The position numbers and the translations under genes are program-made. Source: Flaccisagitta enflata (taxonomy: Eukaryota). From it: a stretch of 64,000 bases of DNA. The stretch spans positions 22,506,001-22,570,000 of the forward strand of contig OZ231126.1 of assembly GCA_965153355.1 (NCBI GenBank). Direction: 5' to 3'. Positions 48,720 through 53,695 of the stretch are shown one piece after another (position 1 is the first letter of the stretch; every line of letters begins with the position of its first letter). The notes under the pieces were generated by a model. The model made no database searches. It had not been told where the DNA came from and saw only the letters and a program-made list of their open reading frames with translations.

Positions 48720-51700
48720 CTCGATGCCGAGGGCCTTCAAAGCCACAATTGCCGATGATATTCCGTCGAAGAGGGAAAGGACTCTGACAGGACGACGTTG
48801 ATGAGGAGGAGGAGGAGGAGACAAATGAAGACCGGCGCTAGAATTGCCTGAAACTTGCAAAGGAATTTCTAAAGGTGAATCGCGAAGTTGCCATGGAGGA
48901 AGTTTATTGAGCTTTGTCTTTTTGTTTATTTTGTTGTTGTTGTTGTTGTTGTTGTTGTTGTTGTTGTTGTTGTTGTTGTTGTTGTTGTTGTTGTTGTTGT
49001 TGTTGTTGTTGTTGTTGTTGTTGTTGATGTTGTTAAGATTTTGACGCCGACAGAAAGAACTCCGCCACTTTTTGGTTTTTGAGATATCACTCAGTTTGAC
49101 AAAACACGGTTTCAATTGAATTTGCCGTTTTCTGTTGATTGAAGCCGTATCACAATTGAAATTTTCAGCAATTTTTTTTGTCGTGCGTCTTTTCTTTGAT
49201 AAAGGCGGCACTTCCTCATCAGCCTTTCCCGCGCCTAAAGCATTTTCCTTTGGAATCTCTTTGGAATGATCCAACAAAATAATCTCGGGTTTACGTAAAT
49301 GACGTTTAGATGGGCCGGCAATGGGACTGACAGACTGACTGACAGACCGACCGACAGAAGGTGAAGTAGTGCCACCGTCAGATGGACGGACCAATGGACC
49401 GACGGAGGCGTCAATAGATGGGTCAACCGATTGTTTCTTCCTCTTTAAGCCCTTCCTGTTTGCCAAAACATCATAAGTTGAAGAGGAAGATGAAGATGAG
49501 GAGGAGGAAGATGAAGAAGTTTGGAATTTCGTGACTTTCCTTCCTCCAGGAAATGTCCTCAATTTCGTTAATTTCGTCTTTTTCATTAACTTTGTCTTTT
49601 TTGTCAATTTCGTTTCTTTGATTTTCTTGATTTTCGCCGCAGTGAGAATTGTTTTTGTTGTAGAGTAGATTTTACGTTCAAAAATGACATAATTAGTCGT
49701 TGAAGAATGTCTACCGCGTCTTTTGTTATCTTTTTTCCGTTCATCGCGGTTGCCTTTGTCTTTTTCCGATTCTGTATCGTCTTTTTGAGATTTTGTTTTG
49801 TCTTTTTGGGTGCCTGCCGGGTCACCATGGTCATTCTCAGACCTCTGTAGATTTTTCATTTCAGCTTGTCCATCTGTGTCTCCCGGATCATTCGATGTCT
49901 CATTGTCATTATCATTCTCTTTCTGTCTGTTTCCGTCATCTTTAGATTTCCTTGTGTCATCATCTCTCCCTCCTTGACTAGATTTGTCTGTTTCCGCCGT
50001 TCTATTGTCGGGCGTTTTCTGATCCCGACCACATGACTCATCCTTTTCGTCATCGGATGGGCCTTTTTGACTAGAGTCACTGTGCTTAGATTGATTACGT
50101 TCATTGAAACCGATGTTTTCTCCTTCATTGGTACCTACGGAAGAAGAGCGCTTTCGTTTCTTTTGGTTGCCCTTTTTCATTCGTTTCGGGCCGTTTTGCC
50201 CTTCATGTTCCTCTATCACTAAAACATCGTCATCTTCAACAACGTTATCACCGTCGTTATCACCGTCGTCATCATCGTCATCTTCAGAATCCCGCGCTCT
50301 TTTATTTGATGTTTTTACGGTTTCCTTTGATGTGCTGTCACCCTCCGCTGCGCCAGCGTCGAATGCCGCGGAAACGGTAGCAGCAGCAGTGTCTGCAGCT
50401 GCCATTGCAGCCGCGGTTCCATCGATGATCGAATTGGTCGTGTCAACGTTGGATGTTCCATATGGGTAACGGCAGTTGTCAGTCTCTTTGTCGTTTTTGC
50501 CGTCTTTACCATCTCTACTGTTATTACCCCCTCTACCGTTACTGCCGTGGCCACAGTGAGATCCGTTGGTGCCGTTTTCGCCGTTGGTGTCGTTTTCGCC
50601 GTTGGTGCCGATTTCGCCATTTTTGCGACAAACATTCAATTCTTTGATTCTTCCATCGTCGTCTTCATTTTCCGAGGCTGACGAAATGATTACGACTTCT
50701 TCCTCACGAATCAAATTTGTTCCACGACTCAATCTCCTTTTACGACTTCTTTTACCGTCCAGAGTTTTTCCAGATTTTTTCCCTTTTGTTATCTTTTGCC
50801 TTTTTTTACGCGGCGAAAGAAGAATTTTACCGTCTTTTTTCTTTTCCTCTGAATCGATGGAATGATGGGACTTTCTTTTGAATCTTCGGGACGTGTTGTT
50901 GTTGTTGTTGATGTTGTTGTTGATGTTGTTGATGTTGTTGTTGTTGTTGTTGTTGTTGTTGTTGTTGTTGTTGTTGTTGTTGTTGTTGTTGTTGTTGTTG
51001 TTGTTGTTGTTGTTGTTGCTGTTGTTGCTGTTGTTGTTGTTGTTGTTGTTGTTGTTGTTGTTGTTGTTGCCGGCGTTATCATCGTTATTTATTTCTTCAT
51101 TATCATCTATGGTTATCACGTCAAGTTCACGGCCTCTGTTACAAAGATCATGGCCATTTAATTCTTCAGATTTGCCATTTTCTTCGTTAATGCAACTTTC
51201 CTCTCTCTTGTCGCTCTCTTGAACCTCACCATATCTAACCAATCCTTCCTCCGCAGCGATAACATAGCCGTCGTTGCGATGGACAGACGATTCGCACACT
51301 GTATCTGTGATGTATTTCATGACATCGACGACAACCATCATGTTATCTAATACATGATTGATGACATTGTGTCCATCTTTCATCACGCTATCAATTGGTG
51401 AATCCTCTTCAACTGACAGATATTCTGCAACATTTGGAGCCAGCAAAGAGTGACTTTTGTTTTCTTTTATGTGCAAAGAATCATCGAGTCGGTCCAGCAA
51501 ATGATTCATAACTTCCCGCGCTCCCGATAGGAAACTTTCTTCACATGATTGATCTGCACAAGTGAGATCAGAGGAGACACTGACTTCCATGAGTAAGTGC
51601 TCCATGACATTGGAAGCAATCGTGGGATAGCTTTCTTCACCTGAGATTTGAGATGTTTCAACTCTATCGCTTGCAGAGCAGTAATCTGAGGAGCCATTCT

Positions 51701-53695
51701 CCGCGTTTGTCGGCTGACGTGATTGACTTATTTCATCCAATAAAAAAATTTTGACTTCACGAGCAACCGATCGATGGTCTGGAATGGAAATGTTCCGACT
51801 TTTGCTGGTCTCATCTCTTGAGTCATTTGTATGACCAGTGGTTTTCGTAGAATGATGATCATGGGTTATTTGAGTTGCATTGCCCACTTCCCGCAGCAAG
51901 TACTCTACAACATCTCGTGCAACCATTGCATGGGTTTCTCCTGTGATTTCAATCTCAGTGTTATTTGAATTGTGTGAGATGGTTGATGAAGCGCAAACCA
52001 TCTCTAACAAATCCTTCATTACATGACTGGCAATCATAGAGTCATCAGAATTATGGGTTTCTATCACAGGGATTTGGGATTCCATCACAAGAGTATTGGA
52101 TTCTATCCCAGAAATGTGGGAATCAAGAGGAATGTGGGAATCCATCTTAGGAATCGGGCATTCAATCACATCTACAGCGTCCCTGTTGCTGACATTGATA
52201 ATGTAAGAAAAACGACCATCTTGCTTTGATTTTTCATCTGACTTGCTAGTCTCATCAACTAGGTGTCTCATAATATCCAGGACGACTAGAGAGTTTTCTC
52301 CATCATCTGGGGTTAGAGATGCTTTTCCAACCTCGGTCAGTAAGTGCTCTACAACATCAACAGCAACGTTTTGGGCCTCTTTTAAGGCAGCTACATGTGG
52401 TGGATCTGAATTGAGTAAATTAAATGGTGGTTTACCCATTTCCACCAGTATATGCTCGACGACGTCAAATGCAACCAATTTTGCTTCTTTGATTTTGACA
52501 TCATTTGGTCTGTCTGATTCGACAACTGTGGAAATAAGTGAGTGACTGTCCTTGATTTTTGACGATTTGTCTTGTTCATGCAAATCATGGATGACATCAG
52601 ATGCGTTGTTTGAGAAATCGTTTGTCTCTCTTATAGTGGCAATGCACGACTGATTTTGATCATTTCCAGATGAATCAATGACGCTCTCATCAGGGACAAC
52701 AGATGATTGACAATTACCGATTGTTGAGTCAGATGGTTTGCATGTTTCACTCAGAAGATAATCCACCACTTTCACTGTATCATTCCATAGTTTCTCGTCA
52801 TTCAATGTCGATTCCATGACATTCGGTGTCTCCAAAACGGAGCTTTCTTTTTCAGTGATTACCGATTTTGAACCAATTTCCCTCAAGATACAGCTGATGA
52901 CCTCCTTGGCTATCACAAACTCATCGAGGAAGGTTACATCGTCCTCCTGTGAACCATCAGTGCTACCGAGAATCAAAACTAATTCATCGCCTTCTGTGGC
53001 GTTGTATCTGTCATGGGATGTCGCCGAATTAGTGTGCTGGATGTGATCATCTCCATTTGTGCTTCTAGATTTGTCTCCATCTGTCATCGTGTTGCAGTCA
53101 GTGGCAGAATCCTCTGTCATAACGCTGTCATCAGTGATGACATCGCAACCATCATCATCGTGATCAACTGTATGAATCCTCTCACTGTCTTGAGGGTCAA
53201 CATTGGTGATGATATTCTCGTTAGTACTATATTCATCACTTGCCACATAGGATCTACTGTCATTTTCAAGGCTCTTACCGTTCGCCACGATTTTATCCCT
53301 CTTTGTACCTTTGATTTTGTCAATTTCATCTTCAGATGGCAACTTAAAGATGGTACCGGATTCAGCAGATGTTTCGCCGATAATTTCAACGTCATCATCA
53401 TCATTTTCACCATTCTGGTTATCATTGCCGAGGTCTCTGTCATCATTTCTCATCTGCTTGTCGCCAGTTTTGTCATTGTCTTCATCGTCGCTGAGTTCAA
53501 TTACTTTAATTGAACTATCAGATATAGCATCATCATCATCACCGTCATCACTTTCACCATCACTATCACCATCAACGTCTTTGTCTTTGTCTTCCTTTGC
53601 AGATGAAAGGAGGAAATTCCAGAGTCGTCGCTTTTCTGCTTCTTTTTCATCTTCTTCTTCATTATCGTCGGCTATTATGCACCTTTCTTCCGTAT
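48720..53695 (-). CDS. DNMT3: DNMT3-family methyltransferase, giant 4976-nt exon: low-complexity N-terminus plus motif I
   Basis: Acceptor ttttttctctcttatattcatgcag (AG at 53697-53696, phase 1). The exon ends [26 protein letters not shown]|gtatgc (donor 48719, phase 0), which joins in frame to VQTYVASEID and matches DNMT3A [32 protein letters not shown]. Confidence 0.88.

What the first reader, a model, noticed from the sequence alone, without database searches (positions are those of the whole stretch)
51294..52913. About 13 copies of an amphipathic-helix motif in the DNMT3 N-terminus
Seen: IAKEVISCILREIG, DTVKVVDYLLSETC, VAFDVVEHILVEMG, VAVDVVEHLLTEVG, VVLDIMRHLVDETS, IASHVMKDLLEMVC, VARDVVEYLLREVG, VAREVKIFLLDEIS, IASNVMEHLLMEVS, GAREVMNHLLDRLD, LAPNVAEYLSVEED, DGHNVINHVLDNMM, VVVDVMKYITDTVC, separated by variable polar linkers. 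The consensus is about [VI]AxxV[VM]x[HY]LLxEV. The pattern is conserved at protein level while spacers diverge. Inference: a multivalent docking array for a partner, or a self-assembly module, that could substitute for the lost reader domains. I cannot assign it to a named family.
Basis: partly seen in the sequence, partly recalled or inferred. Interest (0 to 1): 0.75.

Follow-up and report, generated by a model that had tools for sequence, protein, structure and literature searches.

The report
Docking-helix array in reader-less DNMT3
A DNA-methylating enzyme of a marine animal lacks its usual histone-reading domains and instead carries about a dozen repeated short helices that look like docking sites for a partner protein, which may be how it finds its targets, but no partner is shown.

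Summary
All 13 listed 14-mers lie at 51294-52913 (minus strand), in the disordered N-terminus of a 2,078-aa, three-exon DNMT3 with intact catalytic motifs and no PWWP or ADD domain. An unseeded search recovers the repeat far above shuffles (210 against 119-123, maximum 145). Ten copies are good, three weak. Codons shared between copies are randomised (145 of 390 identical, 134 expected) while 84 of 91 face positions stay hydrophobic, which points to old copies held by protein-level constraint; recent polymorphism leans the same way but is not significant (p=0.12). No homologue or family was found, and the five other DNMT3 genes lack the repeat in the stretches read. New here: seven SUMO-interacting-like motifs flank the array, and such motifs are enriched across this genome's DNMT3 N-termini (18 against 5.7). 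The DNMT3 set resembles that of chaetognaths, whose six DNMT3s lost both readers and whose methylation falls on transposons. Best reading: a multivalent docking array, spaced like DPY-30/AKAP-type helices, in a replacement targeting arm. The partner is not shown, and one RNA run had no reads on the array.

The parts
54764..54848 (-). DNMT3 exon 1 (predicted; ATG, 28 aa, phase-1 GT donor); holds one SIM-like motif at about 54804-54815
   Evidence: matched in the second copy; splice not confirmed by RNA
48720..53695 (-). DNMT3 exon 2: acidic disordered N-terminus, helix array, poly-Asn, basic tracts, ending in methyltransferase motif I and a phase-0 GT donor
23822..24997 (-). DNMT3 exon 3: rest of the catalytic domain (motifs IV, VI, VIII, X present; about 130-aa Ser-rich insertion)
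   Evidence: PF00145 E 2.5e-20; best database hits are DNMT3 proteins, 42-48% identity; AG acceptor; paralogues start an exon at the same place
51294..52913 (-). array of amphipathic helical repeats (residues 290-829 of P0001)
52872..52913 (-). copy 1 (res 290-303), good
   Evidence: leave-one-out 18.5 bits
52740..52781 (-). copy 2 (334-347), good
   Evidence: 16.1 bits
52434..52475 (-). copy 3 (436-449), strong
   Evidence: 24.0 bits
52326..52367 (-). copy 4 (472-485), strong
   Evidence: 29.7 bits
52245..52286 (-). copy 5 (499-512), good
   Evidence: 14.2 bits
51993..52034 (-). copy 6 (583-596), weak by profile, full hydrophobic face
   Evidence: 10.2 bits; 7 of 7 face positions
51882..51923 (-). 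copy 7 (620-633), strong
   Evidence: 29.7 bits
51726..51767 (-). copy 8 (672-685), good; closer to consensus in other samples
   Evidence: 12.5 bits
51579..51620 (-). copy 9 (721-734), good
   Evidence: 16.5 bits
51483..51524 (-). copy 10 (753-766), good
   Evidence: 16.6 bits
51402..51443 (-). copy 11 (780-793), weak/degenerate
   Evidence: 10.1 bits; 5 of 7 face positions
51336..51377 (-). copy 12 (802-815), weak; abuts copy 13 as one long predicted helix
   Evidence: 6.3 bits
51294..51335 (-). copy 13 (816-829), good
   Evidence: 12.7 bits
53499..53510 (-). SIM-like motif (res 91-94)
   Evidence: pattern scan
53379..53390 (-). SIM-like motif (131-134)
52971..52982 (-). SIM-like motif (267-270), weaker context
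51108..51119 (-). SIM-like motif (888-891)
50685..50696 (-). SIM-like motif (1029-1032)
50214..50225 (-). SIM-like motif (1186-1189)
50721..50888 (-). Lys/Arg-rich tract, nuclear-localisation-like (inference)
   Evidence: sequence
48720..48782 (-). start of the methyltransferase domain (motif I), same exon and frame as the array
24998..48719 (-). intron 2, about 23.7 kb here against about 1.1 kb in the second copy

Best explanation
The repeats are a multivalent array of short helical docking motifs in a disordered arm of a DNMT3 that has lost PWWP and ADD. Each four-turn helix (small-x-x-Phi-Phi-x-x-Phi-Phi-x-x-Phi, acidic flanks) would fold on binding a hydrophobic groove in a partner. About ten copies give avidity, and the flanking SIM-like motifs add SUMO binding. 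The enzyme would then reach its targets, probably transposons in the germ line, through protein scaffolds instead of histone marks. The lead candidate groove is a docking/dimerisation (D/D) dimer of the DPY-30 type. Shown: the repeat, its place in a reader-less DNMT3, the helical amphipathic pattern, codon turnover with a conserved face, and SIM-like enrichment. Inferred: binding of any partner, the partner's identity (D/D type about 0.3 overall), nuclear action, germ-line expression and transposon targeting.
For: Repeat far above shuffles. 84 of 91 face positions hydrophobic, while codons at shared residues are no more alike than chance (145 of 390 against 134). Between the two genomic copies pN/pS is 0.39 on the face, 0.64 on the polar side and 0.89 in spacers (not significant). 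A single-sequence AlphaFold2 model puts a separate helix at each copy with no confident fold (pLDDT 34.7). A recalled AKAP-type spacing, widened by me to allow M/T/G, hits 10 of 13 copy starts; 14 hits in all against shuffle means of 1.8-2.8, and 0 of 1000 shuffles reach 14 at any of three block sizes. DPY-30 ligands need four helical turns, PKA-R ligands five (PMC12203939, passages). The ASH2L hot spots L513/L517/V520 have i, i+4, i+7 spacing (PMC13063893, passages), which matches face positions +4, +8, +11. The genome encodes DPY-30 and several other D/D proteins. SIM-like motifs: 7 here against 2.7 (p 0.01); 18 against 5.7 over six DNMT3 N-terminal ORFs; 3 against 3.5 in 15 control ORFs. 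No ADD or PWWP hit lies near any DNMT3 locus. Chaetognaths have six DNMT3s without ADD/PWWP, germ-line expression and transposon-directed methylation (PMC12460157 section 9).
Against: No partner is shown. The spacing is shared by many helical motifs and does not name a receptor. The unwidened AKAP pattern hits only 3 of 13 copy starts. No AKAP or RII-binding Pfam family matched any of 12 copies at E up to 10, and no solved chain matched the profile. The face-versus-spacer test is not significant (5 of 91 against 42 of 359 changes, p=0.12), and one face change is radical (V733D). The array is absent from the five other DNMT3 genes in the stretches read and from genome-wide searches, so it is not the general replacement for the readers. 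One polyA RNA run of the same organism had zero depth over 51090-53265 in 12.2 million records, about 6% of the run (no positive control, tissue unknown). The model is low-confidence and was made without an alignment. 4 of 16 conventional DNMT3 proteins also show SIM-like excess at p up to 0.05, so that trait is not unique to reader loss.
Confidence: 0.55

Rival explanations
1. Relaxed relic: the repeats arose by internal duplication in a low-complexity exon and now have little or no function, or this paralogue is barely expressed.
For: The exon is full of simple-sequence expansions (poly-Asn, poly-Ser). Flanks keep slight nucleotide likeness (0.36 against 0.29). Recent constraint is not significant, and spacer pN/pS is 0.89. 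Several copies are degenerate. No RNA reads on the array in one run. Only one of six DNMT3 genes has it.
Against: Codons have turned over while the face is kept, which neutral decay does not predict. The frame is open for more than 1,660 codons in both copies, the catalytic motifs are intact, and pN/pS is 0.12 over the last 66 codons of exon 2.
Confidence: 0.2
2. Self-assembly module: the helices pack against each other, within or between DNMT3 molecules, into bundles or a condensate that concentrates the enzyme.
For: Many like hydrophobic faces on one chain. Copies 12 and 13 merge into one long predicted helix, and copies 3-5 are closely spaced.
Against: Spacers vary from 0 to about 90 residues and copies sit in mostly acidic surroundings (net charge 0 to -6). 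The model shows no confident packing (pTM 0.20, weak because single-sequence). Not tested with a multimer prediction.
Confidence: 0.15
3. True AKAP-like role: the helices anchor PKA regulatory subunits or sperm-type D/D proteins (SP17/ropporin/DYDC-like) to store, localise or phosphoregulate the enzyme in germ cells, and are unrelated to chromatin targeting.
For: The AKAP-type spacing extends one turn upstream, giving five turns, in copies 1, 3 and 4 (extra hits at 287, 433, 469). The genome has RI-, RII-, SP17- and several DYDC-like genes. D/D ligands are common in cilia and flagella (PMC12203939, passages).
Against: Most copies are only four turns long. The protein has basic tracts and SIM-like motifs typical of nuclear proteins. 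No Pfam AKAP match.
Confidence: 0.1

Closest known systems
Chaetognath (Paraspadella gotoi) DNMT3 paralogues, PMC12460157
   Same: About six DNMT3 genes, none with ADD or PWWP. This genome has eight DNMT3 places, six if two near-identical pairs are haplotypes, and no ADD or PWWP hit near them. It has nine contigs, as the paper's nine chromosomes, and is found in marine metagenomes.
   Different: In the passages and section read the paper describes only domain loss; no N-terminal repeats or SIMs are mentioned (three text supplements gave 0 hits; figures not seen). Its genome is 257 Mb against 794 Mb here. That this animal is a chaetognath is my inference, not tested by phylogeny, and its methylome is not known to me.
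DPY-30-binding helices (ASH2L SDI, BAP18, AKAP95) and AKAP amphipathic helices
   Same: Short amphipathic helix of four to five turns with i, i+4, i+7 hydrophobic anchors.
   Different: The named DPY-30 ligands are described with one such helix each; here there are about ten in tandem on a DNA methyltransferase. No sequence match to any family or solved chain. Binding not measured.
Canonical animal DNMT3A/B (PWWP-ADD-MTase)
   Same: Catalytic domain 42-48% identical over the aligned part in the best hits, with motifs I, IV, VI, VIII and X.
   Different: No PWWP or ADD; a 1,660-aa disordered arm; a Ser-rich insertion in the catalytic domain. No N-terminal hit of the repeat profile in the 17 proteins.
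SIM-bearing effectors of SUMO-dependent piRNA silencing (Egg/SetDB1, Wde, Mi-2, MEP-1), PMC8490990
   Same: Silencing enzymes recruited through SUMO-interacting motifs (passages); SIM-like motifs are enriched in these DNMT3 arms.
   Different: Those are histone modifiers and remodellers; in mouse, DNMT3 is recruited through SPOCD1. SUMO binding here is only a pattern match.

Membership tests
DNMT3 family | C5-methyltransferase domain closest to DNMT3 | tested here: met
   PF00145; 16 of 17 hits carry PWWP or ADD Pfam marks of DNMT3
DNMT3 family | Catalytic motifs I, IV (PC), VI (ENV), VIII (RxR) and X intact | tested here: met
   read from the translation; motif names recalled
Canonical DNMT3A/B architecture | PWWP and ADD domains N-terminal to the catalytic domain | tested here: not met
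   none in the protein; 0 of 16 PWWP hits and 0 of 1 ADD hit near a DNMT3 locus
D/D-domain ligand (DPY-30-binding or AKAP helix) | Amphipathic helix of 4-5 turns with paired hydrophobic anchors | tested here: met
   widened pattern 10 of 13 copies; turn numbers from PMC12203939
D/D-domain ligand (DPY-30-binding or AKAP helix) | Match to the strict AKAP consensus or to an AKAP profile | tested here: inconclusive
   strict recalled pattern 3 of 13 copy starts; no Pfam AKAP family for 12 of 12 copies; no PDB chain; short helices often escape such searches
D/D-domain ligand (DPY-30-binding or AKAP helix) | Measured binding to a D/D dimer, lost on face mutation | not testable with these tools
   needs ITC, fluorescence polarisation or overlay
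Folded helical repeat proteins (ankyrin, HEAT and similar) | Regular period and a packed solenoid | tested here: not met
   copy-to-copy distance 14-102 residues; no Pfam repeat family; no confident fold
SUMO-interacting motifs | Short V/I/L core beside acidic or Ser residues in disorder | tested here: met
   7 against 2.7 in local shuffles, p 0.01; pattern recalled and set by me
SUMO-interacting motifs | Binding to SUMO | not testable with these tools
   needs a binding assay

The most novel reading that the evidence does not exclude
The array is a DPY-30 sponge that replaces the ADD domain by chemistry instead of reading. SUMO brings this DNMT3 to piRNA-marked transposons through its SIMs. 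There its ten or so helices strip DPY-30 dimers from ASH2L, lowering local H3K4me3 while the enzyme methylates DNA. This would be a DNA methyltransferase that shapes the H3K4 state it can no longer sense, and a mechanism for the shift of methylation from gene bodies to transposons in an animal lineage.
Probability: 0.12. Interest if true: 0.85.

Novelty: new variant of a known kind. Interest (0 to 1): 0.55.

Why it matters
Loss of PWWP and ADD from DNMT3, with methylation moved onto transposons, is published for chaetognaths (PMC12460157), but the passages read do not say what targets the stripped enzymes. This gene offers two concrete handles: a tandem helical docking array and SIM-like motifs shared by several paralogues. 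Both can be tested with short peptides. If either holds, it shows how an animal DNMT3 can be retargeted by gaining short linear motifs. My searches for such a description (judged from listings, except the papers opened) turned up none.

Tried and rejected
Complex prediction: one repeat (30 aa) with two copies of a DPY-30 D/D domain identical to this genome's two exons gave 'no answer'. It scored 0.47, but a control scored 0.28, short of the required 0.20 margin; this counts neither for nor against binding. Run search: no RNA holder listed in the index, which says nothing on expression. Homologue searches for the array found nothing usable: 0 of 7,997 candidates; ESM Atlas blank twice; PDB profile 0 hits; Pfam none credible. 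The profile search of 1.84 billion proteins gave 5 hits, all rejected: an ankyrin protein, two Ig-like repeat proteins, one dubious ORF and one unnamed 209-aa protein with three look-alike helices. Treating the second genomic copy as a paralogue was rejected as unsafe: many loci are doubled 40-200 kb apart, and sample X2 shows two variants per place. The exon-3 part of the pN/pS script failed and was not rerun. The SIM shuffle used exon 1 in the wrong frame; one search replaces it. A published AKAP consensus was not found in three papers opened for it, so that pattern is recalled. Searches of earlier scan findings returned nothing. The neighbouring zinc-finger gene as a linked partner was rejected as unsupported. 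The exon 2-3 junction was not checked with reads.
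Full report
Gene. The finding lies in a 1,697-codon open frame at 48687-53780 on the minus strand. Splice signals give three exons: 54848-54764, 53695-48720 and 24997-23822, in matching phases, for a 2,078-aa protein. Exon 2 ends in methyltransferase motif I. Exon 3 holds the rest of the domain (PF00145, E 2.5e-20), whose best database hits are DNMT3 proteins (17 hits among 7,999 candidates). The catalytic motifs are intact (motif names recalled). 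A second copy lies about 150-180 kb away, inverted, with intron 2 of about 1.1 kb instead of 23.7 kb, and paralogues begin an exon at the same residue, which supports the model. The splices were not confirmed by RNA.

The observation. All 13 listed 14-mers are present at the stated limits. An unseeded search scored 210 against shuffle means of 119-123 (maximum 145 over 90 shuffles). Ten copies score 12.5-29.7 bits leave-one-out, three are weak, and one extra site is doubtful. The pattern is small-x-x-Phi-Phi-x-x-Phi-Phi-x-x-Phi, with V or I at +3 in 13 of 13 copies, L at +8 in 10 of 13 and E at +10 in 9 of 13; 84 of 91 face positions are hydrophobic, counting Thr. AlphaFold2 without an alignment gives a helix at each copy, long coil between, and no confident fold (pLDDT 34.7, pTM 0.20).

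Constraint. Where two of 12 copies share a residue, the codon is identical in 145 of 390 cases against 134 expected from codon use (pairs are not independent). The copies are therefore old, or arose independently, yet keep the face. Flank nucleotide identity of 0.36 against 0.29 hints at ancient internal duplication. Between the two genomic copies, amino-acid changes are 5 of 91 on the face, 8 of 91 on the polar side and 42 of 359 in spacers (pN/pS 0.39, 0.64, 0.89; Fisher p=0.12). The direction fits constraint, the test is not significant, and one face change (V733D) is radical. The second copy is probably the other haplotype. It is colinear over more than 40 kb at about 85-94% identity, many unrelated loci are doubled nearby, and sample X2 shows two variants per place. 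Of the 40 variant rows shown (232 more were not shown), 28 match the second copy's letter; one makes residue 677 hydrophobic, as in the consensus, in X2 and X3, while another changes face residue M758 to Thr in X2.

Distribution. No relative of the array was found among 7,997 candidates, in the PDB, Pfam or the ESM Atlas. A profile search of 1.84 billion proteins gave five unrelated hits. In the own genome, two searches found only the two copies (the first look is word-based and can miss short motifs). The genome has eight DNMT3 places, six genes if two near-identical pairs are haplotypes. The profile found no copy in 20-30 kb read around each of the others, although more distant 5' exons may have been missed. 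None of 16 PWWP hits, nor the single ADD hit, is near a DNMT3 locus.

A second motif. Seven SIM-like motifs flank the array and none lies inside it (7 against 2.7 in 50-aa block shuffles, p 0.01). Six DNMT3 N-terminal ORFs pool to 18 against 5.7 (maximum 11 in 300 shuffles); two of them are upstream ORFs not shown to be spliced, and one has none. Fifteen control ORFs (7,377 residues; one is in fact the twin of a DNMT3 upstream ORF) give 3 against 3.5. Against uniqueness, 4 of 16 conventional DNMT3 proteins also reach p up to 0.05. The pattern is recalled and its thresholds are mine.

Organism and context. Contig pieces across the array occur in two marine metagenome runs of one study. Six reader-less DNMT3 genes and nine contigs match what is published for a chaetognath, where methylation falls on transposons and DNMT3s are germ-line markers (PMC12460157: passages and all of section 9 read, three text supplements searched with no hit, figures not seen). 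The phylum is an inference. In one polyA run of the same organism, 12.2 million records (about 6% of the run) gave no depth over the array. With no positive control and unknown tissue this is weak evidence; it fits both a rare germ-line transcript and a silent gene.

How it most likely works. Variable spacers, acidic surroundings and one conserved face are what short helical docking motifs look like (established knowledge, recalled), not a folded repeat domain. The spacing fits D/D-domain ligands. A recalled AKAP pattern hits 3 of 13 copy starts when strict and 10 of 13 when M, T and G are allowed. DPY-30 ligands need four turns and PKA-R ligands five (PMC12203939, passages). The ASH2L anchors are spaced i, i+4, i+7 (PMC13063893, passages), and the DPY-30 groove accepts unrelated helices (same paper; PMC8339350, passages). 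The genome encodes DPY-30 and other D/D proteins. I put about 0.55 on a partner-docking array used in targeting, and about 0.3 overall on a D/D-type groove. Other helix-binding domains (PAH, KIX, nuclear-receptor or LD-motif receptors; recalled, untested) share such spacing. SUMO-dependent recruitment has precedent in piRNA silencing (PMC8490990, passages). Since only one of six genes carries the array, the SIM-like motifs are the better candidate for a general replacement of the readers, and the array is a specialisation of one paralogue.

Rivals. Relaxed relic or silent paralogue (0.2), self-assembly (0.15), PKA or sperm-type D/D anchoring (0.1); the evidence for each is in the Rival explanations section.

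Novelty and score. Reader-less DNMT3 is known. The helix array and the SIM-like enrichment were not found in print (listings only, except the papers named; PMC4963476, PMC7140648 and PMC13025221 were opened as passages and were not relevant). This is a new variant of a known kind. It makes an open question, how stripped DNMT3s are targeted, testable with peptides, but it rests on one gene in one species with no partner and no transcript shown. Interest 0.55.

Noticed in passing
window 42550-45036 (+), inside DNMT3 intron 2: An 828-codon open frame with a C-terminal GIY-YIG domain and a reverse-transcriptase-like middle (read by eye), like a Penelope retroelement. It lies in the 22-kb stretch that the second copy lacks.
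   Followed up: partly
window 58638-60539 (+): A tandem C2H2 zinc-finger gene (about 19 fingers) head-to-head with the DNMT3; no match in the 6.6 kb upstream of the second copy.
   Followed up: partly
L019/L051, G000:C5 about 43.19 Mb: A divergent DNMT3 paralogue whose motif VI lacks the usual glutamate and whose motif IV is altered: possibly a catalytically dead, DNMT3L-like partner. It has three SIM-like motifs.
   Followed up: no
G000, pairs on C1 (71.6 Mb), C2 (61.8-62.0 and 95.9 Mb), C3 (97.3 Mb), C5 (7.5-7.7 Mb), C6 (5.09-5.26 Mb), C9 (54.0 Mb): Many genes occur twice 40-200 kb apart, often inverted, suggesting uncollapsed haplotypes; gene counts from this assembly need care.
   Followed up: partly
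L033, L034, L035, L037: At least four DYDC-like Dpy-30-domain genes besides DPY-30, AK7-like and NME5-like ones (names recalled); L033 has a long acidic tail.
   Followed up: no
window about 24340-24730 (-), and L011: Low-complexity insertions inside the catalytic domain: about 130 Ser-rich residues here, and poly-Asn plus acidic stretches in the C4 paralogue.
   Followed up: no
window 54480-54715: A very high-copy dispersed element in intron 1, with many RNA reads that run on into unlike sequence.
   Followed up: no
P0023 (unnamed, 209 aa): An unrelated protein with three look-alike amphipathic helices in acidic spacers, possibly a convergent array.
   Followed up: no
L018, G000:C6 about 5.24 Mb: Retrotransposon gag-like and pol-like frames about 10 kb upstream of a DNMT3 paralogue; observed only.
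   Followed up: no
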